From positions 192,001 to 256,000 of the forward strand of contig OY969811.1 in NCBI GenBank assembly GCA_963703315.1: a stretch of DNA of 64,000 bases. The letters are read 5' to 3'. This DNA is from an uncultured cyanobacterium (GTDB taxonomy: Bacteria; Cyanobacteriota; Cyanobacteriia; Pseudanabaenales; Pseudanabaenaceae). Both the position numbers and the translations under genes were made by a program. Position 1 is the first letter of the stretch; each line of letters begins with the position of its first letter. This document shows positions 9,113-19,112 of this stretch, in pieces. The notes beneath the pieces are model-generated. The model made no database searches. It had not been told where the DNA came from and saw only the letters and a program-made list of their open reading frames with translations.

Positions 9113-9146
9113 TCTTCATGATCTCCTCACTTTTTTGATTGATAAT
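9113..9146 (+). promoter_or_regulatory. Cluster promoter motif, copy 1
   Basis: TCTTCA-N5-TCCTCA-N11-GATAAT. Confidence 0.6.
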
Positions 9147-9176
9147 TGTAGTTATTGACAAGTAGGAAGGCTTAGT

Positions 9177-9291
9177 TATAGCGGTAGCCAGTTATGTTAG
9201 GACAAACCCAAAACCCAAAAGAGAGTTGCGGCGCGTAGCGCCGCAACTCTCTTTTGGGTTTTATGTCTTAACTAAAATGGCTATAGCTATA
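9177..9291. mobile_element. MITE-like palindromic element, family A, copy 1 (115 bp)
   Basis: TATAGC...GCTATA ends; central AAAACCCAAAAGAGAGTTGCGGCGC hairpin; near-identical copies at 18187 and 50434. Confidence 0.85.
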
Positions 9292-9294
9292 TTT

Positions 9295-9369
9295 GTAGAA
9301 TGCGTTAGTGCAATGTAACGCATCAATTGGATAAAGATGATGGGTTACGCGATCGCTAAACCATCCTAC
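9295..9369. repeat. GTAG-type REP doublet (REPIN-like)
   Basis: GTAGAATGCGTTAG..GTAACGCATC ... GATGGGTTACGCGATCGCTAAACCATCCTAC; related copy at 21152. Confidence 0.8.
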
Positions 9370-9463
9370 ATTTAATTCTAAGTAGCTGGGCATAACTAAC
9401 AACCTACTTCCCTGATACCTAATGCCAATGCACTGAAGTGTTGCCATATTTATATGGAGCGCT

Positions 9464-11368
9464 TTGAAGGAGAAAATCTTGAAGATTTTATTAGTTGAAG
9501 ATGATGTATATTCTGCGGAAATACTGTTGCAACTACTCGCAGAATCTAACTACACCATTGATGCTGTGGCTGATGCGAAAACTGCTTGGAAATATGTGCA
9601 AACCTATGATTATGACTTGATCATTCTCGATGTGATGTTGCCTGACAGTGATGGGTTGGGGCTATGTACCAAGCTGCGTAATTCGGGCTATACCACTCCT
9701 GTGTTATTACTGACGGCGAAGGATAGTACGAGCGATCGCGTGATGGGTTTGGAAGCAGGAGCTGATGACTATGTGGTTAAGCCCTATAACTTTCAGGAAT
9801 TAGTGGCAAGGATTCGGGCGCTATTACGTCGCTATCATGAGAGTGATATTCTCATTCAAGAATTGATTTGGGAGGACTTGCGGCTCGATCTAAGAATGAA
9901 TACTGTGACTTATAAGCAGCAACCTTTACACTTAACGCAAAAGGAATATGGATTATTAGAAATATTTCTCAGGCATCCACAACAGACATTTAGTCGTAGT
10001 GCTTTGATTGATCATGTTTGGTCGGCGGGAGAGTTTCCCAGTGATGAGGCGGTGACTACGCATATTAAGGGATTGCGTCAGAAGTTGAAGGCAGCAGGGT
10101 TACAAACAGATCCCATTGAGACTTTATACGGATTGGGTTATCGGCTCAAACCTGTACCTGTGCAAGCAACCGATGAGCCTATGGCGATAAGTCTTTTGCC
10201 TAAAGAAACTATAGACGACAACCTATCACCGTTAGACAAGGCGCAAGTAAGGGAAGTAATTGCGATTATGTCTAAGAAATTAATCGCGAGTTTGCCAGAA
10301 ATAATTGCCATGTTCCGACAGGTAGCGATCGCTTTGGAGCAGCATAAATTGGATGCAGATCTGCGTTATGAAGGATATATGCAAGTGCATCGGCTGATTG
10401 GCTCCTTGGGGTCTTTAGGATTTCCTGAAGGATCGGCGATCGCCCGTCAGCTTGAAGAGATGTTACATATTGATTTTCCTTTGGTTGCTGTTGATGCGGA
10501 CTTATTGCGAGAATTAATTAGCAAGCTCGAACAGAATACTCTCAATCCATTACCAACAGTCCCTACTGAGCCGACATTACTCCCATCTCATCATTCGTCA
10601 TTACCTCTATTATTAATTGTCGATGATGATGTTCTGTTAACAGAGGAAATTCTATTAGAGGCAGAAACTTGGGGAATGCGGGTACAAACGGCGAACGATC
10701 TGACAGAGGCTAGGTCAAAAATTGCGAAGGAAGCGCCTGATGTGATGTTGCTAGATATCATCTTTCCTGATTTGACTGAAAACGGACTGACTTTGTTAGA
10801 TGAACTGGCGCAGAGGGAGACGAAAATCCCGACGGTGATGATAACGGCGGCGAGTGGGTTGAGCGATCGCGTGATGGCGGCGCGTAAGGGTGGTTGTGCA
10901 TTTATCGAGAAGACTGCCTCTACGGAAGAAATTTTGAATACGGTGTCGCAGGTTTTGTATCAACACTGTAGCGATCGCTCGAAGGTGATGATTGTCGATG
11001 ATGATCCGAATATGCTCAAAATTTTGCAGCAATTACTAAACCGTTATGATATTGAGGCTACGACTTTGCAAGATCCCATGCAGTTTTGGCAGGTTTTGGA
11101 ATCAACTTCTCCCGATCTGTTAATTTTGGATTTGCTGATGCCTTGCTACAGTGGGCTTGATTTATGTCAAGCGGTGCGAACGTCTTCGCTTTGGCATGAT
11201 TTACCAATCGTGTTTTTATCGGCTCAGACCGATCGCGAAACAATTCGGCAATTATTTGTCGCGGGTGCTGATGATTATCTGAGTAAACCCGTTGCGGAGA
11301 GTGATTTGTATACCCGTATTCTCAGTCGTTTAGATCGCAGTCGCCTATCGAGAAAAAATTATTCGTGA
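9464..11368 (+). CDS. RcaC/RfpB-like multidomain response regulator (REC-wHTH-HPt-REC-REC)
   Basis: OmpR-type N-terminus (ETLYGLGYRL); HPt motif VHRLIGSLGSLGF; two further REC domains. Confidence 0.85.
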   Translation: MKEKILKILLVEDDVYSAEILLQLLAESNYTIDAVADAKTAWKYVQTYDYDLIILDVMLPDSDGLGLCTKLRNSGYTTPVLLLTAKDSTSDRVMGLEAGADDYVVKPYNFQELVARIRALLRRYHESDILIQELIWEDLRLDLRMNTVTYKQQPLHLTQKEYGLLEIFLRHPQQTFSRSALIDHVWSAGEFPSDEAVTTHIKGLRQKLKAAGLQTDPIETLYGLGYRLKPVPVQATDEPMAISLLPKETIDDNLSPLDKAQVREVIAIMSKKLIASLPEIIAMFRQVAIALEQHKLDADLRYEGYMQVHRLIGSLGSLGFPEGSAIARQLEEMLHIDFPLVAVDADLLRELISKLEQNTLNPLPTVPTEPTLLPSHHSSLPLLLIVDDDVLLTEEILLEAETWGMRVQTANDLTEARSKIAKEAPDVMLLDIIFPDLTENGLTLLDELAQRETKIPTVMITAASGLSDRVMAARKGGCAFIEKTASTEEILNTVSQVLYQHCSDRSKVMIVDDDPNMLKILQQLLNRYDIEATTLQDPMQFWQVLESTSPDLLILDLLMPCYSGLDLCQAVRTSSLWHDLPIVFLSAQTDRETIRQLFVAGADDYLSKPVAESDLYTRILSRLDRSRLSRKNYS

Positions 11369-11528
11369 ATATTTTGTGAATGCTTTTAGTGCGGGTGTGG
11401 TGGAATATCCCCATGACGGTATAACCCTAGAGGTTTTGTATCGCAATATGGATGCAGCATTGTATCAGGCAAAGGCATCAGGTAGAAATCAGATTGTCGT
11501 GGCAAGTAATTGTCTGGGATCGGCTTGA
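11364..11528 (+). pseudogene. Out-of-frame C-terminal remnant of a GGDEF domain
   Basis: Reads FSAGVVEYPHDGITLEVLYRNMDAALYQAKASGRNQIV. Confidence 0.85.
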
Positions 11529-11530
11529 TC

Positions 11531-11564
11531 TCCTCAGATTGTCCTCATTTTTGATTGTTATTTT
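11531..11564 (+). promoter_or_regulatory. Cluster promoter motif, copy 2
   Basis: TCCTCA-N5-TCCTCA-N11-TATTTT. Confidence 0.65.
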
Positions 11565-11598
11565 TAGAAGTAATTGGGACTGGTTAAAAACTCTAAGA

Positions 11599-11668
11599 GA
11601 TCCCCCTCAATCCCCCTTATAAAGGGGGAAGAAGAGAAGAGCATTCTCCCCCCTTATAAAGGGGGGAG
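11599..11668. repeat. CCCCCTTATAAAGGGGG double-hairpin dispersed repeat
   Basis: Two CCCCCTTATAAAGGGGG palindromes. Confidence 0.75.
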
Positions 11669-11730
11669 CAAGACAATGTTTTTAAATGAGCTTCTTATTT
11701 TGCTAACCGTTCTTTAGGCAATTTGTAAAT

Positions 11731-12159
11731 ATGAAAGTATTCGAGCAGTTTTATGAATGTCCTGTTACTGGTCATGAGTCAGCGATTTGGCAGCTAAAAT
11801 GTCATTTACGGATTATCCATCACCAATTTGGACAACAGATCGCGATTGTCTCTGTACAGAACTGCGAGATTGGCTGGTTTATTCCTTCCCAGCTTGAACA
11901 ACTTGCCACGCACATAGTTCGGACATTTCAACTTGATCCCGATCGCCTAATTTGGATCGAACGTGACCCCCATTACGCCAGCCGCCCAATTAACACGGAA
12001 TATACCGAAGTTTCCTTTGATTGGCATCAAGGGGTTGCCACTAATCCTAAATGGAAGGCGATCGCTAATGAATCAGTCGAATTTCTCAGCATCAAAGCAC
12101 TTACTTGCAATCACAATAGTTTTAATTCTGCTCTCACTCCTTTTCTGGCAAGTGCTTAA
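11731..12159 (+). CDS. Hypothetical protein
   Basis: 142-aa ORF with typical composition (FQLDPDRLIWIE, F.W..G.A.NP.W). Confidence 0.75.
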   Translation: MKVFEQFYECPVTGHESAIWQLKCHLRIIHHQFGQQIAIVSVQNCEIGWFIPSQLEQLATHIVRTFQLDPDRLIWIERDPHYASRPINTEYTEVSFDWHQGVATNPKWKAIANESVEFLSIKALTCNHNSFNSALTPFLASA

Positions 12160-12162
12160 TTT

Positions 12163-12480
12163 ATGCCTAAAACCTTTGTTAAATTAACCTTGATGATTGC
12201 TGTTGAGGAAATTGATAATTTTCTTAGCGATTATCCCAATTGCTTGCAACCAGAATATTCGGCGATTCCCGAATTGCAGACTAAAATTTCTGATACTGAA
12301 CTACGGCGGCGATCGCTAGAGCATATTACCCGCTATATTCCCCATCGTTACGAAGTAATCGACTGTGCAAGGGAAAGTCCTGAAAAGCCGAAGATGCCCT
12401 ACCGCAATCTAGATCAAGGACTAGAGATTAAAGCTCTAGTGCAAGATATCATTTTTCAAATCCTGCCAGAACAGACGTAA
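12163..12480 (+). CDS. Hypothetical protein, possibly ComFB-like
   Basis: 105 aa; V.EEID..L and I.RYIP.RY pattern. Confidence 0.6.
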   Translation: MPKTFVKLTLMIAVEEIDNFLSDYPNCLQPEYSAIPELQTKISDTELRRRSLEHITRYIPHRYEVIDCARESPEKPKMPYRNLDQGLEIKALVQDIIFQILPEQT

Positions 12481-12494
12481 TAATTGATCTTGCT

Positions 12495-12528
12495 CTTACA
12501 TCTTTTCCTCATGTTTGTGTTTTATGAT
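12495..12528 (+). promoter_or_regulatory. Cluster promoter motif, copy 3
   Basis: CTTACA-N5-TCCTCA-N11-TATGAT. Confidence 0.6.
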
Positions 12529-12726
12529 TAACTAGATATAGCCGAGATTGATTTATAATTCGCCCGAAGTAGGGGAACTCGCGCTTATTCCTAGCATCGC
12601 TCAAGTAGCCTGTACTAATGTCCTTAGCCATCAAAGCTTTGTAGAGTTTGGGTGCAAAGGTGTAATTAGTAAACTTTTCGAGTCAATCACCCTTGTTTCA
12701 CAAATTTCTTACATACTAGGCTGGGA

Positions 12727-15045
12727 ATGAATACTTTTTTGCGGCAGATCGATCATGATTATTACGAGTTTGAAGCGGTTAATTTGACTAACTGCGATCG
12801 CGAACCGATTCATATTCCTAGTTTGATTCAGCCTCATGGACTACTTTTGATCCTGACTGAGCCAGATTTATGTATTGCTCAAGTGAGCGCTAATTCCCTT
12901 GAAATTTTAGGGATTGCTCCCGATGATCTCCTCGATCGCCCCCTAGTTGAATTTACGGGTGAAGAACTGATTACATCGATTCAGTCTTGCCTTGAGCGTG
13001 ATTTTGATTTTCTAAATCCTCTGCGTGTTGATTTTTGTGGGATAGGCGATCGCTTGCCTCTGTCGTTTAATGGTATTGTGCATCGCGCTCCCACGGGGGA
13101 AATCGTCCTAGAACTGGAAGCTTGGGAAACATCGGCGGGAAGTGATTTTGTTCGGTTTTATCATCAAATCAAACAAAATCTTGCCAAAATCCAAATAGCA
13201 AAAGACTTAGCGGGATTATGTGACTTAATAGTTCAAGAAGTGCAAGCATTGACGGGATTTGATCGGGTGATGATTTATCGCTTCGGTGAGCAGGGAGATG
13301 GAACTGTAATTGCGGAGACCAAACAGCCTAACCTAGAGACATTTTTGGGACTTCGCTATCCAGACTCAGACATTCCAAAACAGGCAAAACATCTCTATAC
13401 TCTCAATCGGTTACGCTTAATTCCAGAAGTGAGTTATCAACCCGTGGGGTTAGTCAGTTATGGGCAACCGATAGAAGAGAAAGCACTTCTCGATATGAGT
13501 TATTGTACTTTGCGATCGGTTTCACCGATCCACATTGAGTATCTGCAAAATATGGGCGTAGCTGCCTCAATGTCTGTTTCTTTAATTCAAAATCAACGGT
13601 TATGGGGATTGATCGCCTGTCATCATTACGCACCAAAATTCGTTCCCTACGATACTCGTGTAATTTGCGAATTTTTGGGACAGTTGATGTCTACGGAGTT
13701 AGGTAATAAAGAAGCCAACCAACATCTAGATTACAAACTCCATCTCAAAATGCTTCAAGGTCAATTTGTGGAACGTTTGACCAAAGCGACAGAATTTATG
13801 GAAGAACTCAACCATGATCACGCTGCTTTGCTAGAGCTTACGGGTGCTCAGGGGGCGGTGCTTTGTGATGGCGATCGCCTGATTTTGATTGGCAAAACTC
13901 CTGATGAGCCAGCCGTAAGAGCTTTGCTAACTTGGCTACAGGATCGCTTTGAGCAGGGAAACTTTGAGCGCGATCTGTTGGTCACCGACGCTTTATCTAG
14001 TATCTACGCCGATGGCTTGGCTGATCAGGCGATCGCCAGTGGCTTGATCGCAATCGCAATTTCTAAAATTCAACACCGCTATGTAATCTGGTTCCGACCT
14101 GAGCAAGAGCAAACGGTGACTTGGGCAGGCGATCGCGATAAAGCAAGACAGGTTGCCGAAGACGGCAGTATTCGGCTGCTTCCCCGCCAGTCCTTTGCGG
14201 CTTGGAAAGAAATCGTGCTCGGCAAGTCTAGCCCTTGGTTGCCCTGCGAAGTGGAAAGCGCGATCGAATTACGACAGGCGATCGTCGATATTGTCCTGCG
14301 TCAAGCCCATGAACTGGCGATGATCAACTTAGATCTAGAGCGTAGTAACAGCGAACTTGACTCCTTTGCCTACATTGCTTCCCATGATCTTAAAGAACCT
14401 TTGCGCGGTATTCATAACTATGCCACTTTTTTATTGGAAGACTATGGCGAAATCCTGAAGGGAGATGGTACGGACAAACTCCATACATTAGTCAAACTGA
14501 CTAAGCGCATGGAAGCACTGATCGAAGCTTTGCTAAAATTCTCGCGCTTAGGTCGTCAAGAGTTGCAAATGGAACCCCTTGATCTTAATCAGGTGTTGCA
14601 AAATGTAAGGGAATTATTTGCGATGAATCCGCAATGGCAAAACTGCAAGATTGAAATTCCCCGATCGCTACCGATAGTGTGGGGCGATCGCCTGTTGATT
14701 GAGGAGGTTTTCATTAATTTAATAGCCAATGCTTTTAAATATAATGAAAGCTCTGAAAAAATCGCTGAAATCGGCTGGCTCGCAGATCAGTCCTCAGAAC
14801 CTTTGGTAACGCTCTATGTGCGGGATAATGGCATTGGCATTCGCGAGAAGCATTTGCAGTCGGTATTTCAGATTTTTAAACGTCTGAATGCACCGAGTAA
14901 GTATGGTGGCGGTACGGGGGCGGGGCTGACGATTGTCCGCAAGATTGTTGAACGGCACAAAGGTAGTATTCAATTACAATCTATCTATGGGGAAGAAACT
15001 ACGATTTTGTTTGCTTTACCTGCGAGTGATCCTAATCTGCTATGA
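12727..15045 (+). CDS. cphB: Bacteriophytochrome-type histidine kinase (PAS-GAF-PHY-HK), CphB/AphB-like
   Basis: N-terminal Cys in NCDREPIH; DIP motif; SVSPIH lacks the Cph1 GAF Cys; PRQSF; SHDLKEPLR. Confidence 0.85.
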   Translation: MNTFLRQIDHDYYEFEAVNLTNCDREPIHIPSLIQPHGLLLILTEPDLCIAQVSANSLEILGIAPDDLLDRPLVEFTGEELITSIQSCLERDFDFLNPLRVDFCGIGDRLPLSFNGIVHRAPTGEIVLELEAWETSAGSDFVRFYHQIKQNLAKIQIAKDLAGLCDLIVQEVQALTGFDRVMIYRFGEQGDGTVIAETKQPNLETFLGLRYPDSDIPKQAKHLYTLNRLRLIPEVSYQPVGLVSYGQPIEEKALLDMSYCTLRSVSPIHIEYLQNMGVAASMSVSLIQNQRLWGLIACHHYAPKFVPYDTRVICEFLGQLMSTELGNKEANQHLDYKLHLKMLQGQFVERLTKATEFMEELNHDHAALLELTGAQGAVLCDGDRLILIGKTPDEPAVRALLTWLQDRFEQGNFERDLLVTDALSSIYADGLADQAIASGLIAIAISKIQHRYVIWFRPEQEQTVTWAGDRDKARQVAEDGSIRLLPRQSFAAWKEIVLGKSSPWLPCEVESAIELRQAIVDIVLRQAHELAMINLDLERSNSELDSFAYIASHDLKEPLRGIHNYATFLLEDYGEILKGDGTDKLHTLVKLTKRMEALIEALLKFSRLGRQELQMEPLDLNQVLQNVRELFAMNPQWQNCKIEIPRSLPIVWGDRLLIEEVFINLIANAFKYNESSEKIAEIGWLADQSSEPLVTLYVRDNGIGIREKHLQSVFQIFKRLNAPSKYGGGTGAGLTIVRKIVERHKGSIQLQSIYGEETTILFALPASDPNLL

Positions 15046-15536
15046 ATAATCTCTTAACTTCCCCTTGGGCTGACATCACTCATCCCATCATTCTGATCGT
15101 GGAAGATAGCGACGAGGACTTTTATATGTTTATGAGAGCTATGCAGAATCTTGATGTATTGAAGCGATCGCTTTATCGGTTTTTACGATTTGACAATGGT
15201 GATGAGGTGCTTGATTACCTATTTCGGCGCGGCGAATATCAAAATCTGAATGCACCTTTACCCGTTGCCATGCTGCTAGATCTCAACTTACCAGGAACCG
15301 ATGGCAGGGATATCATTCAGCAAGTAAAACAAACTCCACACTTGCAAACCTTGCCAATTATCGTCTTGACCACATCAAACAGTCAGCGCGATATTCAAAC
15401 CTGTTACGAGAATGGAACAAATTGCTATACTCTTAAACCAATGGGTGTTACTGCTATGCAAGAAACAATTCAAACCCTTTTTCAACACTGGTTTCAAATT
15501 GCAGTGCTACCTACCTACGGACAATTTACCTCCTAA
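15042..15536 (+). CDS. rcpB: Rcp-type response regulator cognate to the phytochrome
   Basis: LLDLNLPGTDG, IIVLTTS; C-terminal W.....LP; ATGA overlap with the phytochrome gene. Confidence 0.8.
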   Translation: MNNLLTSPWADITHPIILIVEDSDEDFYMFMRAMQNLDVLKRSLYRFLRFDNGDEVLDYLFRRGEYQNLNAPLPVAMLLDLNLPGTDGRDIIQQVKQTPHLQTLPIIVLTTSNSQRDIQTCYENGTNCYTLKPMGVTAMQETIQTLFQHWFQIAVLPTYGQFTS

Positions 15537-15577
15537 AGTGTCTCCAGAGATCACGCCTGAAGCTTTGCTGACAATTC

Positions 15578-17668
15578 ATGACCTCGACATCACTCTCAGA
15601 AACTAATATCACTGTTTTGATTGTCGATGATTCGATAGAAGATCGTGCTACTTACATTCGCTATCTGCGCTCGGATATATCGCGTTGCTATAGTTTGCTG
15701 GAAGCCGAAACCCTATCGGAAGGCATAGATCTATGGCGATCGCAACACCCTGATATTGTGTTGATTGATTATTTTCTGCCCGATGGGGAAGGGTGGGAAT
15801 TATTGACAGTAATGGGAGAAGGTGATCTCATTCCCAAGCTAGATGCGATCGTTTTAACTGGACTTGACAGCAATGAGCAGCCCATCTTACAAACGATGCG
15901 TTTAGGTGCTGCTGACTATCTGATTAAGGGGGAGGTCACATCCATATCCCTCTGTACCCGTGTTGGACAGGTGTGCGATCACATCATGCTTACCCGTCAA
16001 CTAAAGCGATCACAAGAGCAGGAACTTTTAATTGCCAAAATCTCGCTACATATTCGACAATATATTGGTTTAGAAGAAATTCTCAATGCGATCGTGCAGG
16101 AAATCCGCACCTTTTTAAAAGCCGATCGCACTATTATTTACAAGTTCAACCCCGATATGACTGGCGGAGTCACTGCTGAGTCTATCTTGCCACCTTGGGA
16201 AGGCTGTATGCACCGAGAGTTCAGTGATGAAATCTTTCCAGAAAATATGGGGGGAGAGTATCGAAATGGCAGAATTTTTGTCGCTCCTGATGTGCGTAAA
16301 TCAAATCTTAGTGAATGTCATCTGCAAATGCTAGAAAGCTTTCCCGCAAGGGCAAGCCTGATCGTGCCAATCCTGCATCCCAATGACAAAGATAATCCTC
16401 TGTGGGGTTTGCTATGTACCTATCAATGTTTTGAGCCGCGTGTTTGGCAAGACTCAGATATTCGCTTACTTCAACAATTATCCGTACAGCTAGCGATCGC
16501 CCTCCAACAAGCGGAACTTTATCGCGATCTCCAAAAAAGCAATGTTGAATTAGAAAATCGGGTTGCAGAGCGCACTGCCGAACTTTATCAACGGCAAATT
16601 GCTCTCCAAGAATCCAATCGACGTTGGCAATCATTATTAGATAATGTGCGCCTTATCGTCGTCGGTTTAAGCTGTCAAGGACAAGTAGAATATGTCAATC
16701 CCTATTTTCTAGAGGCGACTGGCTACATACTAGAAGAAGTCATAGGCAAAGATTGGCTTCCTTACTTTTTACCTCTCAGTGAACAAGAGGCGGTAAGATT
16801 GGCTTTTGCAGATTCATTCATCAATCCTGATTGCTTTCATAAATATTATCAAAACTCTATTGTCACTAAAACAGGCGAAGAAAGAATAATCGCTTGGAAC
16901 AATACGCTCCTTCGCAATCAAAATGATGAAATTATCGGCTCAATGAGCATCGGTGAAGATATTACTGAAAAGTTAAAGATTGAACGAGTCAAGGATGAAT
17001 TTATTTCCATTGTTAGCCATGAACTCCGCACGCCCCTAGCTTCCATTCGTGGTGCTTTGGGACTGCTTGCCTCTGGTGTATTAGCGGATAAACCTGACGC
17101 TGCTAAGAATATGATTGATATTGCGGCGATCAATATTGAGAGATTGGTGCGTCTAGTCAATGACATCTTGGACTTAGAGCGTTTAGAATCAAACAGTTTT
17201 AACCTCGATCGCCAATGGCACGATACAGCGCAGCTATGCCGCCAAGCCGTAGAAACTATACAAGCACTTGCTTCTGAAAATCAGATTGAAATCTTATCTG
17301 AATATAAATCCTTTCAAATTTTTGCCGATAGCGATCGCATTGTGCAAACCCTAGTCAATTTACTCAGTAATGCGATCAAATTCTCACCACCCCAAAGCCA
17401 AGTTGAGATTAGAGTAAAATCTATCCCCGAGGCGATCGTTTTTCATGTTAGCGATCGTGGGCGGGGTATTCCTGAAACCCACTTAGAAACCATTTTCGGA
17501 CGTTTTAACCAAGTCGATGCTTCTGATTCTCGACAGATGGGAGGTACAGGTTTAGGTTTAGCGATTTCTCAAAGTATTGTGCAGCAGCACGGCGGCAAAA
17601 TCTGGGCAGAAAGTAAATTGTCACAAGGAAGTACCTTTTTCTTCACAATTCCCCACCATAGAAAATAA
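15578..17668 (+). CDS. Hybrid sensor kinase REC-GAF(CBCR-type)-PAS-HisKA-HATPase
   Basis: GAF contains DEIF...ECHLQML...LWGLL; HK contains SHELRTPL and GTGLGL. Confidence 0.9.
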   Translation: MTSTSLSETNITVLIVDDSIEDRATYIRYLRSDISRCYSLLEAETLSEGIDLWRSQHPDIVLIDYFLPDGEGWELLTVMGEGDLIPKLDAIVLTGLDSNEQPILQTMRLGAADYLIKGEVTSISLCTRVGQVCDHIMLTRQLKRSQEQELLIAKISLHIRQYIGLEEILNAIVQEIRTFLKADRTIIYKFNPDMTGGVTAESILPPWEGCMHREFSDEIFPENMGGEYRNGRIFVAPDVRKSNLSECHLQMLESFPARASLIVPILHPNDKDNPLWGLLCTYQCFEPRVWQDSDIRLLQQLSVQLAIALQQAELYRDLQKSNVELENRVAERTAELYQRQIALQESNRRWQSLLDNVRLIVVGLSCQGQVEYVNPYFLEATGYILEEVIGKDWLPYFLPLSEQEAVRLAFADSFINPDCFHKYYQNSIVTKTGEERIIAWNNTLLRNQNDEIIGSMSIGEDITEKLKIERVKDEFISIVSHELRTPLASIRGALGLLASGVLADKPDAAKNMIDIAAINIERLVRLVNDILDLERLESNSFNLDRQWHDTAQLCRQAVETIQALASENQIEILSEYKSFQIFADSDRIVQTLVNLLSNAIKFSPPQSQVEIRVKSIPEAIVFHVSDRGRGIPETHLETIFGRFNQVDASDSRQMGGTGLGLAISQSIVQQHGGKIWAESKLSQGSTFFFTIPHHRK

Positions 17669-17673
17669 GAACT

Positions 17674-18048
17674 ATGACCACTAAATCTATCTTATTAATT
17701 GATGATGAACCAAATCTGGCTGAAGTCATAGCTGTTTGTTTAGAAAGCTTTAAAGACTGGCAAGTGCGTGTAGTCAACTCAGGTAAAGAAGGACTGAAAA
17801 TAGTTGAATCGCTCCAGCCCGATGCGATTCTCCTTGATGTGATGATGCCTGAAATGGATGGTATTACTGTCTTTCAGCATCTCCAACAGAATTCCGCTAC
17901 TCAAAATATTCCTGTAATTCTATTAACTGCTAAAGTCCAATCGAGCGATCGCGCTAGGTTTTCTCAATTAGGTGTAGCAGGCTTAATTGCCAAACCCTTC
18001 GAGCCACTCCAACTCGCCGATGAAATTGCCGATCTTTTACATTGGTAA
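17674..18048 (+). CDS. Single-domain response regulator (RcaF/RfpC-like)
   Basis: LLIDDE, LLDVMMP, IAKPF. Confidence 0.9.
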   Translation: MTTKSILLIDDEPNLAEVIAVCLESFKDWQVRVVNSGKEGLKIVESLQPDAILLDVMMPEMDGITVFQHLQQNSATQNIPVILLTAKVQSSDRARFSQLGVAGLIAKPFEPLQLADEIADLLHW

Positions 18049-18150
18049 GTAGCTCGGCATATTTATAAACCAAACCCAGATTGCCGTGCCGCCCGCGTAG
18101 CGGGCGGCACGGCAATCTGGGCTTTAAGTTTACTTATGCTTGACTACTTA
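18046..18150. repeat. Palindromic element, family D (TAAGTAG...CTACTTA ends)
   Basis: Begins at the TAA stop of the upstream gene; GC-rich central hairpin; relatives at 25998 and 46632. Confidence 0.7.
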
Positions 18151-18186
18151 ACTATAGCAAGAGGATTGACTGACAAAAGTATTAGA

Positions 18187-18301
18187 TATAGCTGTAGTCA
18201 GTTATGTTAGGACAAAACCAAAACCCAAAAGAGAGTTGCGGCGCGAAGCGCCGCAACTCTCTTTTGGGTTTTATGTCTTAACTTGCTTGGCTATGGCTAT
18301 A
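18187..18301. mobile_element. MITE-like family A, copy 2 (115 bp)
   Basis: Near-identical to 9177..9291. Confidence 0.85.
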
Positions 18302-18372
18302 AATACGTCAGATAAGAAGTCTACTCTGTACAGGTGAAATCTTTGTGGTGTAGGTATTTCAACCATTTTATG

Positions 18373-18406
18373 TCATCATACTTTCCTCATGATTATCATT
18401 TACATT
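18373..18406 (+). promoter_or_regulatory. Cluster promoter motif, copy 4
   Basis: TCATCA-N5-TCCTCA-N11-TACATT. Confidence 0.65.
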
Positions 18407-18451
18407 CATTTAACTCAATATTAGAAAGCAACTTGGCTCTAATAAAAATCT

Positions 18452-18835
18452 ATGTCGAACGCACCCAACAAAACAATTTTATTAATAGACGATGAGGAAT
18501 ACATTCGTCTGATTATAGAAGCTTGTTTTGAAAGTTTTAGCAATTGGCATTCTATAAGTGTTCCATCCTGTGAAGAAGGTTTGCTGGCTGTAGCAAACCT
18601 TCGCCCTGACGCAATTCTGCTAGATATGTTGATGCATAATATGGATGGTTTTGATTTTCTCAAAAATTTACGAGCTAACCCTGAGTTTGCAGATACTCCC
18701 GTAGTCTTATTGACTGGTCGAGTTGACCTCATCGAACCTCAAAAAGTTGCTCAGTTAGGAGTCAAAGGCGCGATCGCAAAGCCATTCCATCCCACTCAAA
18801 TTGTTCCTCAAATTGCGCGTATTCTGGGGTGGTAA
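18452..18835 (+). CDS. Second single-domain response regulator
   Basis: LLIDDEE, LLDMLM, IAKPF; paralogous to 17674..18048. Confidence 0.9.
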   Translation: MSNAPNKTILLIDDEEYIRLIIEACFESFSNWHSISVPSCEEGLLAVANLRPDAILLDMLMHNMDGFDFLKNLRANPEFADTPVVLLTGRVDLIEPQKVAQLGVKGAIAKPFHPTQIVPQIARILGW

Positions 18836-18856
18836 TGAGGCGAATCACACTTCAAC

Positions 18857-19074
18857 CCCACATTCCGCTCTTATTTTACTGAAAAAAATATTTAGAAAAC
18901 AAATCCTTATACAGTAAGTATTTTGGGCTTTCGTCAGAAAAATACCACTATCTTAATATTGTCAATAATGACGTACTAATAGGAGTTATTATCATTAATT
19001 TTTCAGAAAATCGCTGAAACCCTCATTGTCTCGTTGTAAATATTTTTAGGCTTCCATTACGAGCGGAATGTGGG
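18857..19074. mobile_element. 218-bp MITE, probably IS1634-derived
   Basis: 14-bp perfect TIR CCCACATTCCGCTC; 6-bp TSD TTCAAC at 18851-18856 and 19075-19080; no ORF. Confidence 0.85.
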
Positions 19075-19078
19075 TTCA

Positions 19079-19112
19079 ACCACAGAATTTCCTCATTTTT
19101 CTAGATTAGACT
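19079..19112 (+). promoter_or_regulatory. Cluster promoter motif, copy 5 (no downstream ORF)
   Basis: ACCACA-N5-TCCTCA-N11-TAGACT. Confidence 0.55.

What the first reader, a model, noticed from the sequence alone, without database searches (positions are those of the whole stretch)
9113..19112. Five-copy promoter motif (hexamer-N5-TCCTCA-N11-TANNNT) across a photoreceptor phosphorelay cluster
Seen in sequence: five intergenic regions of the cluster carry an invariant TCCTCA exactly 11 nt before a -10-like hexamer, with a degenerate copy one helical turn upstream. The copies are 9113 TCTTCA/TCCTCA/GATAAT, 11531 TCCTCA/TCCTCA/TATTTT, 12495 CTTACA/TCCTCA/TATGAT, 18373 TCATCA/TCCTCA/TACATT and 19079 ACCACA/TCCTCA/TAGACT. 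All are on the + strand, and four lie upstream of cluster genes. Established: OmpR-type wHTH regulators bind 11-bp-period direct repeats; RcaC binds the different L-box TTGCACA-N4-TTGCACA. Inference: this is the box of the cluster's RcaC/RfpB-like regulator (9464..11368), defining an autoregulated, light-controlled regulon with a motif I do not recognise. A dedicated sigma factor is an alternative reader.
Basis: partly seen in the sequence, partly recalled or inferred. Interest (0 to 1): 0.88.

Follow-up and report, generated by a model that had tools for sequence, protein, structure and literature searches.

The report
Light-sensor cluster's conserved activator promoter box
Five promoters in a cyanobacterial light-sensing gene cluster share a conserved double-repeat DNA box that is probably read by the cluster's own regulator, and that box is a close sister of the unexplained motif controlling far-red-light photosynthesis genes.

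Summary
The five sites are real, far beyond chance (held-out rank 8-14 of 9.13 million positions) and conserved. Consensus: TCCTCA-N5-TCCTCATTTTT, then a TAnnnT -10 at fixed spacing. That is two 7-mers with a 4-nt spacer, 10 nt before the -10, the layout of a PhoB/OmpR activator box that replaces -35.

The box tracks the neighbouring REC-wHTH-Hpt-REC-REC(-GGDEF) regulator: it is found in 32 of 34 family genomes with the orthologue and 5 of 37 without. It stays with cheY-like, ComFB-like, DUF1816 and sensor genes through rearrangements. Two related genomes carry a second, paralogous cluster with its own variant (TCTCCA), which favours the regulator over a sigma factor.

The motif is not wholly unknown. 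The same model finds a TCTTCA variant before chlF in 9 of 11 far-red (FaRLiP) loci and 0 of 81 psbA controls. These match the positions of the T-rich motif that a 2024 preprint called FaRLiP-specific. This scan noted sister boxes on other DNA before.

Binding, start sites and light control are untested. The regulator promoter carries a box in only 17 of 30 loci; site 5 is an orphan.

The parts
9113..9146 (+). Box 1 plus -10 (GATAAT), upstream of the regulator; predicted start about 9153, leader about 310 nt
   Evidence: orthologous box upstream of the regulator in 17 of 30 loci
9214..9258 (.). REP-like hairpin with T-tail inside the leader of box 1; possible terminator that dampens autoregulation in this strain (inference)
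   Evidence: 254 BLAST hits to this stretch in the genome
9464..11368 (+). Regulator REC-wHTH-Hpt-REC-REC, 634 aa, RcaC/RfpB-like; acceptor residues D56, H309, D431, D556 present; recognition helix reads AVTTHIKGLR; proposed reader of the box
   Evidence: Pfam; best PDB hits of the wHTH are PhoB; residues
11376..11528 (+). C-terminal remnant of a GGDEF domain; the middle of the domain, including the GGEEF motif, is deleted in this strain
   Evidence: matches residues 759-802 of an intact 803-aa orthologue at 70%; 10 orthologues keep GGEEF
11531..11564 (+). Box 2 plus -10 (TATTTT), upstream of orf142-orf105; best match to the family consensus; predicted start about 11571
11731..12159 (+). orf142, conserved cyanobacterial protein of unknown function
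   Evidence: no Pfam or NCBIfam family; homologues in 28 of 71 family genomes; atlas hits below 0.9
12163..12480 (+). orf105, probable divergent ComFB-like protein (candidate cyclic-dinucleotide receptor)
   Evidence: 30% identity, pairwise E 3e-9, to a cluster homologue; 3 of 11 aligned homologues hit Pfam ComFB, the window protein itself does not; low-confidence model ranks CdgR 8HJA second at Z 5.8, rmsd 3.8, 82 aligned, not decisive
12495..12528 (+). Box 3 plus -10 (TATGAT), upstream of the phytochrome-Rcp-kinase-cheY1 operon; predicted start about 12535
12727..15045 (+). PAS-GAF-PHY-histidine kinase with N-terminal Cys and no GAF Cys (bacteriophytochrome type; CphB/AphB-like by recall)
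15042..15536 (+). Rcp-like single receiver
15578..17668 (+). Hybrid REC-GAF-PAS-histidine kinase; GAF keeps the CH Cys but reads DEIF in place of DXCF; likely cognate sensor (inference)
   Evidence: in L083 the regulator is fused to a GAF-PAS-kinase
17674..18048 (+). cheY1, single receiver (RcaF/RfpC-like position directly after the kinase)
18373..18406 (+). Box 4 plus -10 (TACATT), upstream of cheY2; predicted start about 18413
   Evidence: dispersed cheY2 copies elsewhere in relatives carry their own box
18452..18835 (+). cheY2, single receiver; the most constant target of the box
18857..19076 (.). About 220-bp multicopy repeat (MITE-like) abutting box 5
   Evidence: 15 BLAST hits over 180 bp in the genome, self included; 95-100% identity in the rows printed
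19079..19112 (+). Box 5 plus -10 (TAGACT), orphan; in relatives this ACCACA/ACTACA-type box precedes a DUF1816 gene that is missing here

Best explanation
The element is an activator-dependent promoter. Shown: two 7-bp half-sites (consensus TCCTCAT) with an 11-bp period, a T-run, and a TAnnnT hexamer 10 nt behind the second half-site, conserved and tied to one regulator clade. Inferred: the phosphorylated REC-wHTH-Hpt-REC-REC regulator binds head to tail at about -40 to -23, takes the place of the -35 element and recruits sigma70-type RNA polymerase, as PhoB/PhoP do. Phosphate most likely comes from the cluster's GAF-PAS kinase through cheY1 and the Hpt. The output is mostly more signalling protein: the sensors, a second CheY that may be a phosphate sink or a motility output, a ComFB-like protein, DUF1816 and, in intact orthologues, the regulator's own GGEEF domain. 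This fits a feedback-wired signalling and c-di-GMP module rather than a pigment regulon. The box is one variant of a site shared by the RcaC/RfpB-like family, of which the FaRLiP motif is another.
For: Geometry independent of selection: 57 of 72 sites. Best PDB matches of the wHTH are PhoB. PHO half-site CTGTCAT and the PhoB-sigma70 contact are in passages of PMC4415409; the 4-bp spacer and displacement of -35 are in passages of PMC11825685. Co-occurrence: exact pattern in 21 of 34 genomes with the orthologue and 1 of 37 without, reversed-pattern control 0. The profile matches 32 of 34 and 5 of 37; leaving out the 17 genomes used for training, 17 of 19 and 3 of 35. Boxes follow genes through rearranged clusters and dispersed cheY2 copies. 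Paralogue test: G065 and G066 each have four TCTCCA boxes in the 41%-identical paralogous cluster and none of the TCCTCA type there, and no TCTCCA box in the orthologous cluster. Outside the family, the best genome-wide match in 6 of 6 genomes of genus g14 lies 6-7.5 kb downstream of the regulator homologue on its strand. Box class clusters on the regulator tree: 16 changes against 34.5 in shuffles, quick tree.
Against: No binding, start-site or expression data; the only RNA run was uninformative. G023 (one contig, 99% complete) keeps one slightly degenerate box without the orthologue; G040, G048 and G050 have single boxes in draft assemblies, and G056's box lies in a cluster fragment at a contig end. 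23 of 69 regulators on the tree have no site of 20 bits or more nearby, among them two orthologues (L112, L119). The genome encodes another related REC-wHTH protein, 60% identical over the wHTH. Genomes are kin, and G065/G066 count as one event. No simple rule links one helix residue to the C/T difference: L098 and L199 break it.
Confidence: 0.76

Rival explanations
1. The box is an activator site, but it is read by a different OmpR-family protein, for example the single-domain REC-wHTH at genome 3997676-3998350, or by several related regulators.
For: That protein is 60% identical over the wHTH. Boxes persist in five genomes where the orthologue was not found. Variants differ by only one or two bases.
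Against: Its helix differs (TVKVHIRSLR). The box is absent from 32 of 37 genomes without the orthologue. Paralogous clusters carry their own variant.
Confidence: 0.1
2. The regulator binds the box but acts mainly as a repressor, or activates in its unphosphorylated state.
For: The repeats cover the -35 region. PhoP and RcaC both have dual roles (passages).
Against: The fixed phasing to the -10 and the absence of a sigma70 -35/-10 pair at these sites in the consensus scan fit activation. RfpB is described as an activator (PMC4658448 passage).
Confidence: 0.07
3. A dedicated sigma factor reads TCCTCA as an unusual upstream element.
For: Rigid spacing between TCCTCA and the -10 hexamer.
Against: A direct repeat with an 11-bp period is not needed for sigma recognition (general knowledge). 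The spacer of 11 nt is short for a sigma70 -35. No sigma gene lies among the cluster genes scanned. Two clusters in one genome use different hexamers matched to different regulators. Only 8 sites exist in the genome.
Confidence: 0.05
4. The sites are remnants of duplicated or mobile DNA with no regulatory role.
For: Site 5 abuts a multicopy repeat, and two out-of-cluster sites are one duplicated 231-bp segment.
Against: Column information falls to background outside the 34 columns, the sites sit before non-homologous genes, and they are kept across genera.
Confidence: 0.02

Closest known systems
FaRLiP intergenic chlF / long / short (33 bp) motifs, Antonaru et al., bioRxiv 10.1101/2024.05.15.594131; proposed there as the RfpB site
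   Same: Same 34-column layout. The family model picks sites before chlF, the psa genes and the rfpD-like gene of the Fischerella NIES-4106 plasmid, the positions that section 9 names. Mean column correlation 0.72 against a shuffled maximum of 0.59. RfpB and this regulator are homologous, with related helices (TVTAHIKGLR and AVTTHIKGLR).
   Different: Half-site TCTTCA with an AGT spacer against TCCTCA with GA[AT]T; own-model scores 36-43 bits against cross-scores of 5-16. Targets here are signalling genes, not photosystems, and G000 has no chlF. The preprint calls the motif FaRLiP-specific; the text I read does not describe repeats or a -10. Its Figure 5 and supplements were not available, so the equivalence rests on position and length.
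PhoB/PhoP PHO box (OmpR/PhoB activator site replacing -35)
   Same: 7-bp half-sites, 4-bp spacer, overlap with -35; half-sites end in TCAT (passages). wHTH most like PhoB in the PDB. The 10-nt distance to the -10 in E. coli is recalled.
   Different: Different bases at half-site positions 1-3; a conserved T-run; a multi-domain phosphorelay regulator; no phosphate genes.
RcaE-RcaF-RcaC and the L-box (type 3 chromatic acclimation)
   Same: Kinase, single receiver and complex OmpR regulator in one relay (PMC5737509 passage). The L-box as given in the finding also has an 11-bp period.
   Different: No exact L-box in the genome; no phycobiliprotein targets; extra receiver and GGDEF; the kinase has an N-terminal receiver.
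Sll1170-type ComFB-like / DUF1816 / PAS / GGDEF protein (PMC12448109, section 5)
   Same: The same three domain types occur as separate genes in these clusters, mostly behind the box.
   Different: Separate genes rather than a fusion; in this strain DUF1816 and most of the GGDEF are lost; ligand binding by orf105 is untested.

Membership tests
OmpR/PhoB-type activator box | Tandem 7-bp half-sites with an 11-bp period | tested here: met
OmpR/PhoB-type activator box | Fixed phasing to a -10 hexamer, repeats covering the -35 position | tested here: met
   TAnnnT at column 29 in 57 of 72 sites chosen without those columns; start site itself only predicted
OmpR/PhoB-type activator box | Linked regulator with an intact winged-helix domain | tested here: met
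   Trans_reg_C E 7.6e-23; PhoB best PDB hit; co-occurrence
OmpR/PhoB-type activator box | Direct, phosphorylation-dependent binding and activation | not testable with these tools
   needs EMSA, footprinting or a knockout
FaRLiP motif (RfpB regulon) | Located before chlF/psa/apc/psb far-red genes in a FaRLiP cluster | tested here: not met
   G000's best ChlF-query matches are three D1 copies at about 62%; targets are signalling genes
FaRLiP motif (RfpB regulon) | Sequence and layout of the 33-bp core | tested here: inconclusive
   Layout shared and columns correlated with sites recovered before chlF, hexamer differs; the published logo was not seen
RfpB | Operon with the knotless phytochrome RfpA | tested here: not met
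   The cluster's phytochrome has the PAS_2-GAF-PHY core; the regulator does not group with the two RfpB rows on the quick tree
RcaC / L-box | TTGCACA-N4-TTGCACA sites at phycobiliprotein operons | tested here: not met
   0 exact matches in the genome; only two 3-mismatch matches in the cluster, on the minus strand
RcaC / L-box | Orthology to RcaC | not tested
ComFB family (orf105) | Sequence or fold match to ComFB/CdgR | tested here: inconclusive
   indirect Pfam link through homologues; Z 5.8 to 8HJA from a pLDDT-59 model

The most novel reading that the evidence does not exclude
RcaC/RfpB-like multi-domain regulators across cyanobacteria read one ancestral promoter box (two xxxxCA half-sites 11 bp apart, 10 nt before the -10). 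Each paralogue has drifted to its own half-site: TCCTCA here, TCTTCA for FaRLiP, TCTCCA in the paralogous cluster, TCCTCA followed by AA in stress-gene clusters, and perhaps the L-box. This would insulate coexisting relays and make the FaRLiP switch a re-targeted copy of a generic signalling regulon. The window's cluster would be a bilin-sensor-driven, self-amplifying c-di-GMP/motility module.
Probability: 0.45. Interest if true: 0.75.

Novelty: new variant of a known kind. Interest (0 to 1): 0.58.

Why it matters
The sequence bound by RfpB, the far-red photosynthesis switch, was still being sought in 2023 (PMC10127269 passage), and the 2024 preprint left its motif without a mechanism. Reading that motif as a PhoB-type box and showing sister variants beside paralogous regulators gives base-level predictions: which half-site bases to mutate, where transcription starts, and which regulator-promoter swaps should or should not work. 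It also assigns a regulon to a widespread, unstudied regulator family and points to a set of potentially orthogonal sensor-controlled promoters for cyanobacterial engineering. The mechanism itself is textbook, which limits the surprise.

Tried and rejected
Expression and start sites: the one RNA run found (share 0.09, contigs only) gave mixed-organism, patchy cover and cannot show starts.

Exopolysaccharide genes as conserved targets: rejected. The site at genome 1341353 scores 4.1, -0.1, -10.5 and -16.7 at best in the 4 orthologous loci. The sites at 1336053 and 2059823 are one duplicated 231-bp segment, and the matching sugar-nucleotide clusters of G041 and G031 have no box.

A one-residue recognition code (T versus A at the start of the helix giving TCTTCA versus TCCTCA): contradicted by L098 and L199. 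A link between R at the third helix position and AA/GA after the second half-site is suggestive only, as that model was trained on the same loci.

Weak profile matches (E 0.003-0.05) in small genomes of family f33 were treated as chance.

ChlF search: one search used too strict a threshold and found nothing; repeated.

The careful tree did not finish; the quick tree is reported. Rfam found nothing in six loci. PDB sequence search and the atlas did not place orf105. The supplement of PMC12924786, which may list the FaRLiP motif sequences, could not be read; bioRxiv supplements are closed. My notebook entry 3 wrongly calls the model the unaltered window matrix; it was the 60-site family matrix. 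The five-site matrix gives 9 of 11 chlF against 8 of 81 controls at 5 bits.
Full report
Observation. The five sites are exactly as described. The loose pattern has 11 matches in the window against 2.59 expected. A matrix from the five sites scores them 35.8-37 bits. Three further genomic sites score 26-28 bits and the rest at most 17.7; each held-out site ranks 8th to 14th of 9.13 million positions. The genome is one 4.57-Mb contig. Its HIP1 sites and gene content look cyanobacterial; the genus (Pseudanabaena-like) is my impression, not a call result.

Cluster anatomy. Pfam gives REC-wHTH-Hpt-REC-REC (9464-11368), two small ORFs without family, a PAS-GAF-PHY kinase, an Rcp-like receiver, a REC-GAF-PAS kinase and two single receivers. 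A 50-codon GGDEF remnant follows the regulator; ten longer orthologues keep an intact GGEEF. The phytochrome has an N-terminal Cys and lacks the GAF Cys in the window and in the orthologues printed; that this marks a biliverdin-binding CphB/AphB type is recalled, and a paper search for it found nothing. The kinase GAF keeps its CH Cys but has DE[IYHL]F or DAHF for DXCF in the closest 13 homologues, so its colour, if any, is unknown.

Conservation. A box lies within 1.5 kb of orf142 homologues in 24 of 30 loci and upstream of the regulator in 17 of 30 loci; both counts include this genome. In 40 larger loci the boxes sit before the regulator, orf142, the sensor operons, cheY2 and a DUF1816 gene, whatever the gene order. 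Dispersed cheY2 copies carry their own boxes, three in tandem in L370. Information is confined to 34 columns. The -10 appears at one offset in 57 of 72 sites picked without it. With the -10 at -12 to -7, the half-sites cover -40 to -34 and -29 to -23.

Who reads it. The orthologue (E at most 1e-100) was found in 34 of 71 family genomes. The exact pattern occurs in 21 of these and in 1 of the other 37. The profile matches 32 of 34 and 5 of 37, or 17 of 19 and 3 of 35 without the training genomes. These genomes are kin, so no P value is given. Exceptions: G023 is complete, lacks the orthologue and keeps one box with a changed second hexamer; G056 and G050 have boxes near contig ends; G040 and G048 share one weak box. 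The strongest argument is internal. G065 and G066 each carry the orthologous cluster with TCCTCA boxes and a paralogous cluster (41% identity, different helix) with four TCTCCA boxes before its DUF1816, ComFB-like, orf142-like and one other gene, and no crossing over. The two genomes are close, so this is one event. In a sample of 151 phylum genomes, the best match in all 6 genomes of genus g14 lies within the regulator's cluster. Many family members have no detectable box nearby: 23 of 69 rows on the tree.

Relation to the FaRLiP motif. Section 9 of bioRxiv 10.1101/2024.05.15.594131, read in full (passages), describes T-rich motifs with a 33-bp core before chlF, psa, apc, psbA3 and rfpD, proposes RfpB as reader and calls them specific to FaRLiP species. 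In the FaRLiP cluster of the Fischerella NIES-4106 plasmid, the top three sites of the 60-site family matrix, trained only on non-FaRLiP genomes, lie before the psa genes, chlF and the rfpD-like gene (21.5, 19.2, 7.8 bits). Within 500 bp upstream of chlF-class genes, 9 of 11 loci have a site of 9 bits or more, against 0 of 81 loci classed as D1; loci with under 300 bp of upstream DNA were dropped, and the best 'D1' score (6.0, L200) is a misclassed chlF. The FaRLiP consensus is TCTTCAT-n-AGT-TCTTCATTTTT with the same -10. A third variant, TCCTCATAA-n-TTCCTCAAA, occurs seven times around a homologue on the Stanieria plasmid and near stress genes on other plasmids. I did not see the preprint's logo, its supplements or the journal version.

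Literature. Searches for TCCTCA or TCCTCAT with cyanobacterial regulatory terms found no paper, nor did one for this domain architecture; some searches gave only the papers cited. The library holds open-licence papers only. Seen as passages: PMC10127269, PMC12924786, PMC10124867, PMC4415409, PMC5737509, PMC13079394 (its H box is a different sequence), PMC4658448, PMC11825685. PMC12448109: passages and section 5. Earlier notes of this scan report the PhoB-like layout of the FaRLiP box, a box at an Acaryochloris homologue and a TCACA variant; they are unchecked leads, found after my own results on the first two.

Mechanism and verdict. Shown: a conserved, phased direct-repeat promoter element tied to one regulator clade, with sister variants beside sister regulators. 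Inferred: binding by the 9464-11368 protein, activation in place of -35, phosphate from the GAF-PAS kinase (supported by a natural fusion in L083), and a c-di-GMP-related output (ComFB-like, DUF1816 and GGDEF domains are fused in Sll1170). In this strain the module is eroded: GGDEF deleted, DUF1816 gone from behind box 5, a REP hairpin in the regulator's leader. Out-of-cluster sites near exopolysaccharide genes are not conserved. It is a new variant of a known kind of element, useful mainly because it ties the FaRLiP motif to a family-wide, testable box.

Noticed in passing
G000:C1:1335861-1336087 and 2059791-2060019 (L031, L032): A 231-bp non-coding segment duplicated at 89% identity carries a near-perfect box; one copy precedes a sugar-nucleotide transferase in an exopolysaccharide cluster, the other a Cache-HAMP kinase split by a transposase, followed by a PAS-GGDEF-EAL gene. 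Possibly a mobile promoter cassette.
   Followed up: partly
L355-L359, about 85-55 nt upstream of the conserved 142-aa gene (G000:C1:1340874-1341299, minus strand): A roughly 30-nt element with hairpin-like ends is conserved in all five homologous loci ahead of polysaccharide-type genes; no Rfam match in the four loci scanned. Candidate antitermination or RNA element.
   Followed up: partly
L167 (Stanieria PCC 7437 plasmid NC_019765.1, 172000-200000): Seven copies of the TCCTCATAA variant surround a homologous regulator among dps, universal stress, Hsp20, OsmC and a divergent psbA (70% identity) gene: a compact stress regulon of the same family.
   Followed up: partly
L083:5162-8794 and L114:8132-11770: Natural fusions within orthologous clusters: regulator fused to a GAF-PAS-PAS kinase (1210 aa), and a 1212-aa protein joining the phytochrome core to the downstream kinase region.
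   Followed up: partly
L088:7628-8376 and L089:7700-9497: Tandem paralogous small proteins (115-141 aa, no Pfam family), several with their own box, beside the cluster in G065 and G066.
   Followed up: no
window 18857-19076: About 220-bp MITE-like repeat with terminal inverted repeats and about 15 near-identical copies in the genome.
   Followed up: partly
G000:C1:3625426-3625459, minus strand: A lone site of the TCCTCA-AA variant (25 bits on the pooled model) at the junction of two plus-strand metabolic genes; unexplained, possibly chance.
   Followed up: no
L166:27237-34173 (AP018300.1): The plasmid-borne FaRLiP cluster of Fischerella NIES-4106 looks eroded: RfpB is only 387 aa and the psa region is a single 602-aa frame.
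   Followed up: no
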